A DNA stretch of 64,000 nt from Eledone cirrhosa (lineage: Eukaryota), in NCBI GenBank assembly GCA_964016885.1, contig OZ024753.1:34038001-34102000 (forward strand), written 5' to 3'. Within the stretch, counting starts at the first letter, position 1, and each line of letters starts with the position of its first letter. Made by a program: the position numbers and the translations under genes. The notes under the pieces are model-generated. The model saw only the letters and a list, made by a program, of their open reading frames with translations. It was not told the DNA's origin and did not search any database. Shown here in pieces: positions 4,966 to 52,385 of the stretch.

Positions 4966-5235
4966 AGGAGATTCCAACCAGAATGGATGCATTTTTTAAG
5001 GGTATGTCAATATTTATTTATAAAACTAACCTATATTATATTTTATCTGATGAAATCGCACCATAGTTTGCTCTGGTGGCCTTGAAATATGTATAATGAA
5101 ATAAATATGGTTTTATAAATATAGTTTCCATTTGTTAATATATTGTATATTTACTCCAATAATTTGTTGTGTGCTTTATATCAGTTATAAAAATATTTTG
5201 CTTGTTGTATCCCAACAAATTAAATATAACCTCTA
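4964..5235 (+). mobile_element. Hammerhead-bearing mini-element, family A (Penelope pLTR-like), between TA tracts
   Basis: Homologous to 52126-52365 and 49483-49580; (TA)n on both sides. Confidence 0.7.
5039..5103 (+). ncRNA. Hammerhead motif (family A), partly decayed
   Basis: TATTTTAT-CTGATGA-..CACCA/TGGTG..-GAAA-TATGTA-TA-ATGAAATA; stem I pairs TATTTTAT with ATGAAATA. Confidence 0.7.
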
Positions 5236-5330
5236 CATATATATATATGGATATATATGTATATATTTATATATATGTTTGTATATATGTGTGTGTGTGT
5301 GTGTGTATATATACATATATGACATATAAC

Positions 5331-5393: not shown

Positions 5394-5856
5394 CGTTTCT
5401 GAATTTGTTTAGCAAGATTCTTTATCTGAAATCGTTTACAATTGAAAACACACACAAAATGAAAACACACACACACATAGAACAAACAACCAACCAACAA
5501 TAAATAAATAAACAAATAGAAAAATGAACACAAACACACACAGACACCCGGATGTGGCACATGCGCAAACTGAGCACACAACACACACACAGAAACAAAA
5601 TGGCGTAGGATAGAAGAAAGAAAAGGCACAGAAACGAAGAAAGGAATCCCCAGTCACTGAAGAGGTCACAGAGTGTGTGACGAAAGGACTATGACTATAT
5701 ATATAAACAACTATCTGGTTGTGGAACCAACCAACCAACCAGAAATTTATAAGTTTGTAGATTTGTAAATTTATAAATTTATAAATATATAATAAATTGA
5801 AGTGAAAGCAACTGGTGCGTGTGTTTCTTATTGGCAACATGACCCTCCCAAAGTAT

Positions 5857-5860
<4 letters not shown>
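5391..5860 (+). mobile_element. Family E hammerhead element with an inverted terminal segment
   Basis: 5593-5860 aligns to 42073-42325; 5391-5431 is the reverse complement of 42345-42386. Confidence 0.7.
5652..5696 (+). ncRNA. Minimal type I hammerhead ribozyme motif (family E)
   Basis: AGTCA-CTGAAGA-G-GTCACA gagtg TGTGAC-GAAA-GGAC-TA-TGACT: 5-bp stem I, 6-bp stem II, intact core and a very short helix III as in Penelope-associated hammerheads. Confidence 0.8.
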
Positions 5861-5906
<46 letters not shown>

Positions 5907-8040: not shown

Positions 8041-8173
8041 CGAGGGAAAAGTGGTAAGGAACCAGGTGGACCATAACGCACCAAAGTACTCAATACTTAG
8101 GGTAGTAGAGTGGGTAATAGGAGTAAGTAAGACCCCGACGGCTGAGCTCAAGCCGTTTCGACGGCTAATTCTG

Positions 8174-23341: not shown

Positions 23342-24232
<891 letters not shown>

Positions 24233-33807: not shown

Positions 33808-34696
33808 TACGAGGTGTGTCAGAAAAGTTCCAGAACTGATGTCACAAAAGATTTATTTCAAACCCAAACTTCACACTAAGAGTTTTCTCCTTCAAAGTAA
33901 TCCCCCTGGAGTATGTAACTGTAATCTTAGCTCTCTGCAGCGATCAAACTTTTTTCTTCATAACTTTATATACATGTCCTCTGTTTCAGGTCGTCAAGCA
34001 ATGAGCACAGAGCAACGAACAAACTTGAAGTTTCTGGTACGGTTGGGGAAAACTCCGTCAGAAGAACTGGGATTGTTGCAGCTCACGTGTTTTTGAGTGG
34101 TGCAAGAGGTTTAAAGAAGGACGCAAGGACGTGAAAGATGACCCCAGGAGCGGAAGGCCCTCAACAACCAGGACTGAGGTCAACGTTGAGCGCGTCAGGC
34201 AGATGGTGCGTAGCGATCGTCGGTTGACTGTTCGATTGATGGCAAATGAGCTGGGTGTGAATCGGGATAGCGTCTGGAAGATTCTCACTGAAGATTTGGA
34301 CATGCGGAAAGTCTGCTCGAAGATGGTGCCAAAACTGCTGAACGATGACCAGAAGGGTCGACGCATGCAAGTGTGCCAGGACATCTTCGAGCATTTTGAA
34401 ACCGAACCAGACTTGCTAGGGACAGTCATCACTGGTGATAAGTCATGGATCTTCGAGTACGACCCGGAGGGGACCGTTTTGAAGACGTGGACGACATCAA
34501 AAAGCCGTGACGACGGAACTGCGGAGGATCCCGGAAGAATCCTTCCAGGAGTGCATGCAAGCGTGGCAGAAAAGGACGGAAAAGTGCATTAGATTCCAGG
34601 AGGTTACTTTGAAGGAGAAAACTCTTAATGTGAAGTTTGAGTTTGAAATAAATCTTTTGTGTCATCAGTCCTGGAACTTTTCTGACACACCTCGTG
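33808..34696 (+). mobile_element. Internally deleted mariner DNA transposon with ~100-bp TIRs and TA TSD
   Basis: TA|TACGAGGTGTGTCAGAAAAGTTCC ... GGAACTTTTCTGACACACCTCGTG|TA; inverted similarity covers ~33808-33910 and ~34594-34696. Confidence 0.95.
34001..34629 (+). pseudogene. Mariner transposase pseudogene
   Basis: MSTEQRTNLKFLVRLGKT..VFEWCKRFKEGR..DDPRSGRPST..RKVCSKMVPKLL..ITGDKSWIFEYDPE, then a jump to RFEDVDDIK..FQECMQAWQKRTEKCI..GYFEG. Frameshifted and missing the region with the 2nd and 3rd catalytic Asp. Confidence 0.93.
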
Positions 34697-36427: not shown

Positions 36428-37657
36428 ATTATTATTATTATGACAAGTCGAAGCATCAGATGCGACAGTAACCTTATCAATAGAATTATGATTAACCAAA
36501 GAAAATTTAGGTTCGTCCAATTAGTTATTCATTCTTATTGTCAGTTTCGCTGTTTACTTTTCTTTTCTTTTGTAGTTTATTTTCCTTGGCTGTGTTTGTG
36601 TTGTTGTTGTTTTTTTTGTTTTGCTTTTTCTGTGTGTTTTTCTTTTGTTTGTTTCTTTTTGTCTTATCTTCGTTGAAAGGATACTTTTTTTATTTTTAAT
36701 CTTTTATACAAGATCTGTTTAGTCTTTTCCTGTATGACAACAGCAGATCATCGAAAGTTCCTCTCTTAATATCCATCAATAAAAAAAACCATCTACTCCC
36801 CCAGTACACATCAGAATAATGCTAACAATAATTACTAGAAGAGAATCGTCACTCCATCTTGTCATAATGCCAATTAAATTCCCTCCATTACTTCTATCTC
36901 CATGACCACCACTACCGTCTCTTGTGGTTACTACCTTAACAATTATCGCTACTAATACTATCACAAGATTCTTCTTCTTCTTTTTCTTCTTCTTCTTCTT
37001 CTTCGTCTTCACCCACTTATTCCTGGGAAGATTGTGGGGCCACGATATTTACTGTCCTACGTAACTAATAGATTTTGTAATATATTTATATACATATATA
37101 TATATATGTGTGTGTGTGTGTGTATGCCTGTGTGTAAAAGGTAAACAGAAATAAAACAAACGGTACAGCATATGGAAGGAATATATATGCAAACATACAT
37201 GCATACGTATATACGTACATAAACTTAACTGTACACTCCATATCAAAAAATCACAGAAACACACACATGTATATACACACACACAAACTCACATGTATAC
37301 TCACACATGCACACGTAAATACACACATATACATACGTAAACTGAATTGTACACGCCATGACAGAGCAATACATAGACATAAATATACACACCCACACAT
37401 ATGTATATATATATATATAGTTATACTTGGGGAGGGTCATATTTGTGTAATATTGCCAGAATTAATAACAGAACACACTCACTGTTTGGTTGGTTTTCGC
37501 TTCTCGCTTCTGTGTCTTTTATATCGGTAATCTAACTTACTCGGTCCTCAATGTTGCCATTGACTGACCGACGGTCAAAAATAATACAGATACAATATAG
37601 ACACAAACACATATATATAGTTTATCATAAATCTTTCGTTGCACATCTGCAACATCG

Positions 37658-38511
37658 TCATTTAATTTATTAAATTATTGATATTTTATTTGAGTGACCC
37701 GAATCTTCCTGGTCGTTTTCGGCTGCATGGGTGATTTTAGGCATGATCTCTATGTGTTGGTATTTTAACGATAGTTATAGCTCTGATTTTTCCAAATTAT
37801 TGAGCCCTCTGCCACATATATCGGATATTGTTTATCGTGATTTCGTGGGCTGATATTCCGATTCTCGATTTTTCTACTATATTTAGCTCTAGACCCTAGC
37901 TATTGACCAGTTAATTTTATTGATGATTTTTTTTTGTTGATCTTATTGACTGATGAATAGCTCTTGTTTATTTTAACATGTCTGTTGAGCACTCTGATTC
38001 GATATGTGATAATTTGTATTCTTACATAATTTACACATCACCGAATTCTTTCGCTAATATAAGGGTTCCCTCCCTTGCTGAATACCATGTGCGTTGTTTG
38101 GCTTCGGGTCCCCTCTGTATTATGGAACGAAATACTCGTTGAAGAAGCCTTTCCTCGTTCCTCTCTTCTCTAGAAGTCTTATATATCTTTTATGTGGGCT
38201 GATAGTGATTGGATTAAGGAATTGCAGAAACCCAAGAAGCTAGATTTAAAATCGTTCTAGCGGGTCCGGGTGAGTTTTTTACATTCATTTAATTTATTAA
38301 CTTATTGATATTTTATTTGAGTGACCCGAATCTTCCTGGTCGTTCTTTTTCGGCTGCATGGGTGATTTTAGGCATGATCTCTATGTGTTGGTATTTTAAC
38401 GATAGTTATAGCTCTGATTTTTCCAAATTATTCAGCCCTCTGCCACATATATCGGATATTGTTTATCGTGATTTCGTGGGCTGATATTCCGATTCTCGAT
38501 TTTTCTACTAT

Positions 38512-41761: not shown

Positions 41762-42072
41762 CAGTTCAGATAAACCAACACAGATATTATTTTGCCTGTT
41801 TGAGGAGTTTTGTTTTATTTGCTCTTTTTTTTCATGAATTGATTACATTTTAACAGCTTTTGTTTTATCTCTTAACATATCTTTGATAGTTTTTCCTTCT
41901 ATAGATTTTTTTCTACTTTTTATAGACATTCGTCAATAACAGACGAAATCTTTTATTTGGGAGTGAACTATGGCGAGGTTTTCAGGTACAAATACACAAA
42001 CTACACCACACACGCGCGCATGTATGTATGTATGTATGTATGTATGTATATATGTATGTATAATATATATGA

Positions 42073-42386
42073 GAAACAAAATGGCGTAGGACAGAACAAA
42101 GGAGAGGCACAAAAAACAAAGAAAAGAATCCCAGTCACTGAAGAGGTCAAAGAATGTGTGACGAAAGAACTTTGACAATATATAAACAACCATCTGGTTG
42201 TGGAACCAACCAACCAACGGGAAATTTATAAATTCCTAAATTTATAAATTTATTATAATAAATTGAAGTGAAAGCAATTGGTGCGTGTGTTTCTTATTGG
42301 CAACATGACCTTCCCAAAGTATAGCATATCGGTTTTAACACACGTTTTCAGATAAAGAATCTTGCTAAACAAATTCAGAAACGAAA
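42073..42386 (+). mobile_element. Family E hammerhead element
   Basis: Homologous to 5593-5860 and ends in a TA tract. A diverged minus-strand end lies at ~37420-37485. Confidence 0.7.
42133..42176 (+). ncRNA. Minimal hammerhead motif, second family E copy
   Basis: GTCA-CTGAAGA-G-GTCA..TGAC-GAAA-GAAC-TT-TGAC; homologous to 5652-5696. Confidence 0.75.
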
Positions 42387-49482: not shown

Positions 49483-49580
49483 CCCTGATGAACGCACACC
49501 ATAATTTAACTTGGTGTCCTTGAAATATGTATAATGAAATAAATATGGTTTTATAAATATAGTTTCCATTTGTTAATATA
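49483..49580 (+). mobile_element. Family A fragment in a TA array
   Basis: Near-identical to 5047-5140 downstream of the ribozyme core. Confidence 0.7.
49485..49541 (+). ncRNA. Hammerhead motif (family A), 5' strand of stem I lost
   Basis: CTGATGA..ACACCA/TGGTGT..GAAA-TATGTA-TA-ATGAAATA; starts 2 nt after a TA tract. Confidence 0.65.
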
Positions 49581-49894
49581 TCATACCTACATATATATTT
49601 TTATATATATACATACATATATATATATTTATTTATATATATATATACATACATATATATATATTTATTTATATATATATACATAGATATATATATATTT
49701 ATTTATATATATATACATACATATATATATTTATTTATATATATATACATACATATATATATATATTTATATATATATACATATATATATACATATATAT
49801 ATATATACATATATATATTTATATATATATACATACATATATATATATTTATATATACATACATATATATATATATTTATATATATATACATAC

Positions 49895-49925
<31 letters not shown>

Positions 49926-49938
49926 CATACATATATAT

Positions 49939-50533
49939 ATACAAATATATTACACAGAGAGAAGTGTGTTATACAGTGAGATGTGTGTAAAGAATTATTA
50001 CATGTGGGTTTAACCGTTACTGTATGGAAAACAACACCTACAGGTTAGAAATTAGATAGAAAGAACCCTAAGTCAGAATCAAATATCCGAAGTAGAGTTT
50101 TAAATTACTAACTTTATAACTATAAGCTTGCTGATACGAATCTATTTCGTTTCACCACTGAAATGTGTAGCGTACAAAACCACAGGCTCCTCAGTCAGCA
50201 AGCGTGGAATTGCTCGTCACACATCTAGCCTTATAGATTCGTATCAGCAAGCTTATAGTTATAAGGTTAGTAATTTAAAACTCAACTTCGGAGCTTTGAT
50301 TCTGACTTAGGGTTCTTTCTATCTAATTGCTAACCTGTAGGTGTTGTTTTCCATACAGTAACGGTTAAACCCACATGTAATAATTCTTTACACACATCTC
50401 ACTGTGTAACACACTTCTCTCTGTGTAATATATTTGTATTTGAGCTCAGTTGAAAATTCTCTGTTCTTCTTTGAGCTAATATTATTATTACTGTGAACTG
50501 CGGAATACTCTAATTCCGATTCTTGTACATAGA
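49939..50533. mobile_element. Family F fold-back element (~207-bp inverted repeat) in a TA array
   Basis: Arms 49939-50145 and 50233-50439 with a few mismatches; 87-bp spacer holds the ribozyme 5' half; ~95-bp right extension. Confidence 0.8.
50126..50203 (-). ncRNA. Type I hammerhead ribozyme with a full stem III (family F)
   Basis: Minus strand reads GCTTGCTGA-CTGAGGA-GCC..TGTGG/CTACA..GGT-GAAA-CGAA ATAGA TTCG-TA-TCAGCAAGC. This gives a perfect 9-bp stem I, an intact core, a 5-bp stem III and a GUA cleavage triplet. Predicted cut is between 50135 and 50134. Confidence 0.9.
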
Positions 50534-50803
50534 CATATATATATTTATATATATATATACATACATATATATATATATTTATATATATATACATACTAAC
50601 CCATACAATCACTAATACTCTTTTATTCCTAATTAAACCATTTTTCAACTGTGAACAATTTGTCAGCATTTTCTATTCCGTTTACCAATATATAATAACT
50701 TGTGTGTTACACCTCTATTCTTTTAACTATACATACATATATATATATATTTATACACAGTTCAAGAGTTCTTGTTTTGCTTAACTAATGAATATATATA
50801 TTT

Positions 50804-51230: not shown

Positions 51231-51256
51231 CTATATATATATATATATATATATAT

Positions 51257-51444
51257 ATAGGAACCAGTAAGACCCCGACAGCTGAGCTCAAGCCGTTTCG
51301 ACGGCTAATTCCAGAATTAGCCGTCGAAACGGCTTGAGCTCAGCTGTCGGGGCCTTACTGGTTCCTATTACCCACTCTACTACCTCAAGTATTGAGTACT
51401 TTGGTGCGTTATGGTCCACCTGGTTCCTTACCACATTTCCTTCG

Positions 51445-51825: not shown

Positions 51826-51993
51826 TATATATTTATATATATATATATATATATACACATATATATATATTTATATATATATATATATATATATACGTAC
51901 ATATAAGTATATATATATTTATATATATATATATATATATACATATATATACAATATTAAATAAATGGAAAACTATATTTATAAAACCATATT

Positions 51994-52059
51994 TATTTCA
52001 TTATATATATTTCGGGGATATCATATTAACAATATGTTATGCCTTCATCAGACAAAATA
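51994..52059 (-). ncRNA. Hammerhead motif (family A), inverted twin of 52168-52233
   Basis: Exact reverse complement within the 152-bp inverted repeat. Confidence 0.75.
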
Positions 52060-52167
52060 CAATATAAACAGTTTTATAGATAAATATATTCGACATACCG
52101 TAATAAACATCAACTTCATTTGAAGACGGTATGTCGAATATATTTATCTATAAAACTGTTTATATTG

Positions 52168-52233
52168 TATTTTGTCTGATGAAGGCATAACATATTGTTA
52201 ATATGATATCCCCGAAATATATATAATGAAATA
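52168..52233 (+). ncRNA. Hammerhead motif (family A)
   Basis: TATTTTGT-CTGATGA-AGG..CATATT gtt AATATG..CC-GAAA-TATATA-TA-ATGAAATA; 8-bp stem I with two G-U pairs and a palindromic helix/loop III. Confidence 0.75.
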
Positions 52234-52385
52234 AATATGGTTTTATAAATATAGTTTTCCATTTATTTAATATTGTAAATATACTCCAAATATTTGTCGA
52301 GTGCTTTTATATCAGTTATAAATATTTACTAGTTGTAACCCAACAATTTTAAATATAACTTTACATATACATATATATATATATT

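What the first reader, a model, noticed from the sequence alone, without database searches (positions are those of the whole stretch)
49939..50533. Complete hammerhead hidden at the turn of a 207-bp fold-back
The minus-strand ribozyme (50126-50203) has a perfect 9-bp stem I, a true 5-bp stem III and a GUA site, so it could cleave as a monomer, unlike the minimal forms. The second arm begins exactly at the loop III sequence (ATAGATTCGTATCAGCAAGC, 50233). A read-through RNA would therefore contain a ~200-bp duplex competing with ribozyme folding. The G-U pair at the base of stem II looks like CpG decay of G-C (inference).
Basis: partly seen in the sequence, partly recalled or inferred. Interest (0 to 1): 0.82.

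Follow-up and report, generated by a model that had tools for sequence, protein, structure and literature searches.

The report
Fold-back Penelope passenger with clamped hammerhead
This mirror-image repeat is one of hundreds of copies of a small non-coding mobile repeat that likely hitch-hikes on Penelope-like retrotransposons; its fold-back layout is already described for that class, and its hammerhead motif is conserved across copies and predicted to be braced by a pseudoknot, but cutting is untested.

Summary
In detail: 207-bp arms (201/207 identical) and a complete type I hammerhead motif on the minus strand. The stretch is a 5'-truncated, head-to-head insertion of a 537-nt non-coding repeat (at least 240 exact core matches genome-wide) in (TA)n. 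Copies end at two fixed sites about 87 nt apart; 45 of 86 loci are head-to-head and 23 of 28 classifiable ones pair one end of each kind, the known Penelope-like 'inverted copy plus one-sided tail' pattern. The turn at loop III looks like chance (10 of 90 junction ends fall in the ribozyme, 13 expected). The G-U pair is CpG decay within a small G-C subfamily, but most copies have a mismatch there. Core and stems are conserved across subfamilies, and the 5' flank pairs with all of loop II with compensatory changes: a likely pseudoknot brace, or a lock. Copies run through the cleavage site up to 1.65 units, so templates were uncleaved tandems or circles. No homologous autonomous parent and no RNA data were found. 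The scan has reported this fold-back pattern for other families in this genome. Known kind; modest interest.

The parts
49583..49938 (.). (TA)n-rich microsatellite, left target
   Evidence: sequence
49939..50231 (-). 5'-truncated sense copy of the 537-nt unit (about unit positions 245-537), ending at terminal site A next to (TA)n
49939..50145 (-). Left arm of the 207-bp inverted repeat
50126..50203 (-). Type I hammerhead motif: 9-bp stem I, CUGAGGA core, 3-bp stem II with G-U at its base, GAAA, 5-bp stem III, GUA site; predicted cut 50135/50134
50159..50184 (-). Loop II strand that pairs with the 5' flank
50203..50227 (-). 5' flank of stem I; forms a 5-bp inner and 11-12-bp outer helix with loop II (pseudoknot brace or inhibitory fold)
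50231..50237 (.). Head-to-head junction of the two truncated 5' ends, with a short imperfect overlap
50233..50439 (+). Right arm: second truncated sense copy (unit positions 331-537); has loop III, the 3' strands of stems III and I and the cut site, but no complete ribozyme
50440..50527 (+). One-sided tail (unit positions 1-85), ending at terminal site B
50528..50592 (.). (TA)n-rich microsatellite, right target
   Evidence: sequence

Best explanation
The stretch is one head-to-head insertion of a dispersed 537-nt non-coding repeat with a hammerhead motif, likely copied into a TA microsatellite by the enzyme of a Penelope-like retrotransposon. Shown: the unit is circularly permuted, has no long reading frame, sits in (TA)n, ends at two fixed sites (A, and B about 87 nt further on), is variably 5'-truncated, and about half of the loci are two truncated copies joined at their 5' ends, mostly one A end with one B end. 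Inferred: the endonuclease cut both target strands, each strand primed reverse transcription inside the element's RNA, one at A and one at B, and the two incomplete cDNAs were joined; this gives the inverted repeat with a one-sided tail, and the turn lies wherever the two cDNAs stopped. Inferred: the hammerhead was kept functional in source copies, as a slow or helper-dependent ribozyme whose weak stem II is braced by a flank-loop II pseudoknot, and turns rare tandem transcripts into unit circles of the retrozyme kind. This copy is most likely dead debris: one ribozyme only, a CpG-decayed stem II, no tandem.
For: Family and unit. Ends: of 144 segments in 86 loci, 69 end at A, 46 at B, 29 elsewhere; 45 of 86 loci head-to-head; AB 23, BB 4, AA 1 of 28 classifiable, binomial p=4.6e-4 against 0.5. 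A set chosen only on the ribozyme pattern gives 18 of 27 head-to-head and AB 7 of 7 classifiable (5 of the 27 loci were seen before). The two arms of a locus are closer to each other than to the median other locus in 41 of 44 inverted and 28 of 33 tandem comparisons. Two chimeric units have one end from this family and the other from a coding Penelope-like element, again one A-type and one B-type end (L003, L124). The genome holds large coding families of this kind. Layout, (TA)n bias and one-sided tail: PMC8557442 (passages); both-strand priming and two internal start sites: PMC11167929 (parts 1-2 of 4). Ribozyme selection: 0 subfamily-diagnostic changes in 41 core and stem columns against 20 in 73 others (2/45 vs 18/69, p=0.002, when the two mismatched pairs are counted as stem); position 7 and loop III vary freely; compensatory C-G/U-A changes in stem I and in both flank-loop II helices.
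Against: No coding element with a terminal repeat homologous to the unit was found, so the mobilising partner is not identified; two chimeras could also come from later deletions. The tail (85-89 nt) is longer than the 30-40 bp in print. The 10.1-11.1 pair is non-standard in 64 of 74 copies. Nested folding puts the hammerhead fold 6.4 kcal/mol above the minimum even for the isolated 78 nt (that model cannot form the pseudoknot). No 5' end falls at the cut site among 144 segments, so there is no genomic mark of cleavage. The flank-loop II duplex is only one of several strong duplexes in the unit (second of eight distinct top regions) and each helix has a single covarying pair. Loci were top-scoring hits, biased to long copies that span the ribozyme.
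Confidence: 0.85

Rival explanations
1. The unit is simply the truncated terminal repeat (pseudo-LTR) of a full-length coding Penelope-like element that my searches missed; no circle and no non-autonomous lineage is involved.
For: Truncated ends of coding families look the same in this genome. Searches score only the best 40 DNA candidates of about 1100.
Against: Copies that extend 5' of the ribozyme run on into the tail and 3' part of the same unit, head to tail, up to 889 nt; no mapped locus showed the unit running into a reading frame other than the two chimeras.
Confidence: 0.2
2. The flank-loop II pairing is a lock that keeps the ribozyme off in the transcript, and the ribozyme is nearly inactive or active only with protein help; templates are uncleaved linear tandems.
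For: The minimum-energy fold of 50110-50230 is that hairpin without stem I; mismatched 10.1-11.1 in most copies; 101 of 144 segments cross the cut site and none starts there (biased sample); the anole element's ribozyme was dispensable and protein-assisted in vitro (PMC11167929); 8 of 9 Xenopus retrozyme dimers did not cleave (10.64898/2026.07.22.740005).
Against: Core, stems I and III are conserved across subfamilies about 10-14% apart; short stem II plus pseudoknot is a described fast architecture (PMC3088659 passages); the two pairings are topologically compatible as written.
Confidence: 0.4
3. One reading: the antisense arm is placed at loop III to regulate the ribozyme by duplex competition at this locus.
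For: A minus-strand read-through of 49945-50530 is predicted to abolish stems I-III.
Against: Junction ends are spread over the whole unit; 10 of 90 lie in the ribozyme against 13 expected, 2 in 329-337. The antisense arm would need a promoter right of 50527, in microsatellite DNA; no host gene was recognised among the window's long open frames.
Confidence: 0.03
4. The fold-back is an assembly or long-read artefact, or a DNA-level palindrome unrelated to retrotransposition.
For: No listed contig or read bridged this junction (the lists were cut).
Against: Arms differ at 6 sites and only one has the tail; 45 of 86 loci have the same plan with different junctions and fixed outer ends.
Confidence: 0.03

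Closest known systems
Insertions of endonuclease-bearing Penelope-like elements (inverted 5'-truncated copy, one-sided tail, microsatellite bias; Craig et al. 2021, PMC8557442; Frangieh et al. 2024, PMC11167929)
   Same: Head-to-head truncated copies, two fixed 3' ends, tail at one end, (TA)n target, hammerhead in the terminal unit.
   Different: No reading frame; tail 85-89 nt instead of 30-40 bp; unit closes on itself head to tail.
Animal non-LTR retrozymes (Cervera and de la Pena 2020, PMC7229834; Li et al. 2026, 10.64898/2026.07.22.740005)
   Same: Non-coding unit with one type I hammerhead, AT-rich, partial tandems, same genome as coding Penelope-like elements; a weak base of helix II is also reported for axolotl HHR_Amex2.
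   Different: Unit 537 nt (170-400 nt in the 2020 paper; 51-972 bp in the 2026 preprint); dispersed, longest copy seen 1.65 units, no arrays found; circular RNA not shown.
Pseudoknotted hammerheads with a short stem II (Perreault et al. 2011, PMC3088659)
   Same: Stem II of two standard pairs, base-paired contact between loop II and a strand next to stem I.
   Different: Here the pairing extends over about 25 nt in two helices, and 10.1-11.1 is mostly A-C, C-C, U-U or A-G.
Minimal hammerheads of metazoan Penelope-like elements (Cervera and De la Pena 2014, PMC4209133)
   Same: Type I, in a terminal repeat, often as opposite-strand pairs 100-700 bp apart.
   Different: Those have a long helix II and little or no helix III; this one has a 5-bp helix III and a short helix II, more like the fungal and protist variants in that paper.

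Membership tests
Type I hammerhead ribozyme | CUGANGA, GAAA and UH in type I order around three stems | tested here: met
Type I hammerhead ribozyme | Stems supported by compensatory change | tested here: inconclusive
   One covarying pair in stem I (C-G 27, U-A 15 of 46); stem III nearly invariant; stem II has two invariant pairs
Type I hammerhead ribozyme | Standard pair at 10.1-11.1 | tested here: inconclusive
   G-U in this copy; non-standard in 64 of 74 family copies; U-U is tolerated in published cases
Type I hammerhead ribozyme | Site-specific self-cleavage | not testable with these tools
   No RNA run; needs an in vitro assay
Autonomous Penelope-like element | Reading frame with RT and GIY-YIG domains | tested here: not met
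   Longest stop-free stretch in the unit 97 codons; no homologous coding parent found
Penelope-type insertion product | Two fixed 3' ends giving a one-sided tail | tested here: met
   69 A and 46 B ends of 144 segments; AB 23 of 28
Penelope-type insertion product | Variable 5' truncation with inverted copy and partial tandems | tested here: met
   45 of 86 loci head-to-head; lengths to 889 nt
Penelope-type insertion product | AT-rich or microsatellite target | tested here: met
   (TA)n follows nearly all A and B ends
Penelope-type insertion product | Mobilised by a Penelope-like RT/endonuclease | tested here: inconclusive
   Two chimeric units only
Non-LTR retrozyme | Non-coding repeat unit with a type I hammerhead | tested here: met
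Non-LTR retrozyme | Tandem copies with two or more complete ribozymes | tested here: inconclusive
   3 of 144 segments cross the cut site twice; L168 has two complete motifs; no long array among 71 exact tail matches; this locus has one ribozyme
Non-LTR retrozyme | Expressed as unit-length linear and circular RNA | not testable with these tools
   No RNA holder listed

The most novel reading that the evidence does not exclude
The family is a circular-RNA retrozyme that is integrated by Penelope-type enzymes starting inside the circle at two fixed sites, one per target strand, and rolling past the unit end; internal initiation would explain how an RNA with no 3' end is reverse transcribed into the genome. 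Its monomer ribozyme works with a mismatched 10.1-11.1 pair because a 25-nt flank-loop II pseudoknot braces it.
Probability: 0.3. Interest if true: 0.6.

Novelty: new member of a known kind. Interest (0 to 1): 0.33.

Why it matters
The locus itself is ordinary retroelement debris. The family is a compact test case for two open points: how animal retrozymes get into the genome (their link to Penelope-like elements rests on co-occurrence and sequence kinship in the preprint read here), and whether the two internal start sites seen in vitro are used one per target strand. A 537-nt RNA with two mapped start sites and natural ribozyme variants (G-C, A-C, C-C, U-U, A-G at 10.1-11.1; covarying brace) can be assayed directly.

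Tried and rejected
Rfam gave no hammerhead hit. No RNA holder was listed; run X4 is of unknown kind and its low-depth contigs say nothing on expression. No listed record bridged the junction. Autonomous parent: DNA searches with three parts of the unit, three pattern searches and two protein searches (loci compared with the unit) found none with a homologous terminal repeat. L125, L126, L128 and L149 first looked chimeric but are separate neighbouring insertions. A general excess of CpG mutation in the ribozyme region is slight (8.2% vs 5.9%). RNAalifold on 76 copies did not recover the hammerhead or a strong consensus. Two single hints of cleaved templates are within chance: L066 has a segment ending at the cut site and one X4 contig has an inversion joint at it. 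Dropped before counts: three apparent segmental duplicates (L036, L163, L177), three overlapping loci, and truncated or gapped copies from alignments (76 of 79; 46 hand-picked, subfamily-balanced rows). One paper id was wrong and gave an unrelated paper.

Full report
Observation. The window shows an inverted repeat, 49939-50145 against 50233-50439, 201 of 207 bases matching, between (TA)n-rich tracts. The minus strand of 50126-50203 reads as a type I hammerhead with a 9-bp stem I, CUGAGGA, a 3-bp stem II starting with G-U, GAAA, a 5-bp stem III and a GUA site, cut predicted between 50135 and 50134. The right arm starts at loop III and runs 88 bp beyond the mirror region (tail, 50440-50527). 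Rfam lists no hammerhead.

Family. The genome is 3.0 Gb; I did not establish the organism, and the cephalopod terms in my paper searches were a guess from repeat content. A search with the element gave 1170 loose candidates, 40 scored. A pattern for the core plus this stem III gave 240 exact matches and 0 for the reversed control; the 100 listed all look like this family. Copies define a 537-nt unit that closes head to tail and has no stop-free stretch over 97 codons. In 86 distinct loci (144 segments, after dropping three apparent segmental duplicates) 69 segments end at site A (unit 531-537), 46 at site B (84-93) and 29 elsewhere; 45 loci have two truncated copies joined at their 5' ends; of 28 with both outer ends classifiable 23 are AB, 4 BB and 1 AA (p=4.6e-4). 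A set chosen only on the ribozyme pattern gave 18 of 27 head-to-head and AB 7 of 7 (five loci overlap the earlier set). These samples are top hits and favour long copies. The window's copy is AB: left arm about unit 245-537, right arm 331-537 plus tail.

The turn. Junction ends are spread across the unit: 10 of 90 lie within the ribozyme against 13 expected, 2 in loop III and its neighbours. In the first 34 junctions, 19 show a short overlap, as here. So the turn at loop III is where one cDNA happened to stop. A minus-strand RNA reading through both arms would lose all three stems, but it would need a promoter to the right of the tail; none is known and no host gene was recognised among the long open frames.

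Mechanism of the fold-back. Craig et al. 2021 (PMC8557442; passages only) describe an inverted 5'-truncated copy, partial tandems, a 30-40-bp tail often at one end only, and microsatellite bias for endonuclease-bearing Penelope-like elements. Frangieh et al. 2024 (PMC11167929; parts 1-2 of 4) show that such an enzyme cuts and extends both target strands and starts at two internal RNA sites that bound the tail, and that its hammerhead is protein-assisted and not needed for insertion in vitro. The family's pattern follows if each strand primes at a different site and the two partial cDNAs are joined (inference). Arms of one locus are closer to each other than to the median other locus in 41 of 44 inverted (3.6% vs 6.5%) and 28 of 33 tandem comparisons (4.3% vs 6.4%), consistent with one source RNA, though gene conversion would do the same. 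The arms here differ by 2.9%.

Partner. The genome has abundant coding Penelope-like families (24,187 and 36,088 loose candidates; weak Pfam RT and GIY-YIG matches below cut-off in 2 of 6 frames scanned). Their clade names (Neptune-like, Hydra-like) are my reading of motifs, not tested by a tree. None of the fetched copies shares sequence with the unit. Two insertions are chimeric between TA tracts: L003 has this family's A end and a coding family's tail end; L124 has this family's B end and another coding family's tail-less end. This suggests template switching in one event; later deletion is not excluded.

Ribozyme. Across four subfamilies 0 of 41 core and stem columns carry a diagnostic change against 20 of 73 others (2/45 vs 18/69, p=0.002, counting the two mismatched pairs as stem; one input set was selected on part of the motif). 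Position 7 (G, U, A) and loop III vary, and stem I has a C-G/U-A covariation. The base of stem II is G-C in 5, A-U in 4, G-U in 1 (this copy) and non-standard in 64 of 74 copies. Nested folding disfavours the hammerhead by 6.4 kcal/mol for 78 nt and 11.6 for 121 nt. The competing pairing is the 25-nt flank 5' of stem I with all of loop II; it is kept in every subfamily (-18.5 to -23.2 kcal/mol against -7.4 to -9.9 for shuffles), with one compensatory pair in each of its two helices (C-G 34, U-G 6, U-A 6; U-A 29, C-G 6, other 11; related sequences inflate these counts, and the regions were picked after seeing the fold). It is one of several strong duplexes in a structured unit. It can be written as a pseudoknot on the hammerhead; Perreault et al. 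2011 (PMC3088659; passages) report that 2-bp stem II plus a pseudoknot is common and fast, and that U-U at 10.1-11.1 is tolerated. Cervera and de la Pena 2020 (PMC7229834; passages) report an axolotl motif with U-U there and 22% cleavage in an hour. Brace or lock cannot be told without an assay.

Template. 101 of 144 segments cross the cut site, 3 cross it twice, the longest is 889 nt, and none starts at 340-344. The crossing count is inflated by how loci were chosen, but linear cleaved monomers could give at most about 196 nt from A or 283 nt from B, so the long copies came from uncleaved tandems or circles. No long array appears among 71 exact tail matches. There is no RNA evidence either way.

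Comparison and novelty. It works like a Penelope-type insertion of a retrozyme-like passenger. It is not an autonomous Penelope-like element (no frame). Retrozyme membership is partly met; circular RNA is untested. Li et al. 2026 (10.64898/2026.07.22.740005; parts 1-3 of 5) propose that animal retrozymes are non-autonomous Penelope derivatives and leave the mechanism open. Cervera and De la Pena 2014 (PMC4209133; passages) describe minimal motifs in metazoan elements, opposite-strand pairs, and long-helix-III variants in fungi and protists. Seven literature searches (listings only) showed no paper on this family or on internal initiation on a retrozyme circle; the library lacks most subscription papers and I read no supplements, where consensus lists could include this repeat. 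Earlier notes of this scan describe the same fold-back plan for other families in this genome; none matched this sequence. Verdict: real, a new member of a known kind, interest 0.33.

Noticed in passing
window 51255-51442; also 8045-8173 and 23589-23633: A second, very young fold-back family in (TA)n: about 55-bp arms plus a one-sided tail of about 75 bp; several genomic copies are 100% identical and many are head-to-head with different junctions.
   Followed up: partly
window 4991-5243, about 49485-49580, 51908-52370: Ends of a coding family resembling the Hydra clade (label not tested), with a minimal hammerhead motif on the + strand at 5047 and a similar remnant near 49485; two are fold-backs.
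   Followed up: partly
window 5454-5867, 42072-42326, 37405-37660, 50593-50747: Truncated 3' ends of three other coding Penelope-like families; at least five families share this window's TA tracts.
   Followed up: partly
L014:1487-1508 (unit positions about 225-246): A pyrimidine tract ending in AG/G, like a 3' splice site, lies just 5' of the ribozyme flank; in Drosophila Penelope the intron end maps to the start of helix I (PMC4209133). Mostly lost from the window's copy.
   Followed up: no
unit ends A and B (window 50439/50440 and 50527): Both terminal sites end in TTGTAT, follow a small hairpin and are followed within about ten bases by GAGCTC in the family consensus: a possible duplicated start signal.
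   Followed up: partly
L003:1490-2740 and L124:1319-3810: Chimeric insertions joining this family to two different coding Penelope-like families, each with one tail-less and one tailed end.
   Followed up: yes
window 50134 (run X4) and L066:1403: One low-depth contig has an inversion joint exactly at the predicted cut site, and one genomic segment ends there; single cases, within chance.
   Followed up: partly
window 34029-34592: Open frame resembling a Tc1/mariner transposase fragment (resemblance recalled, not searched).
   Followed up: no
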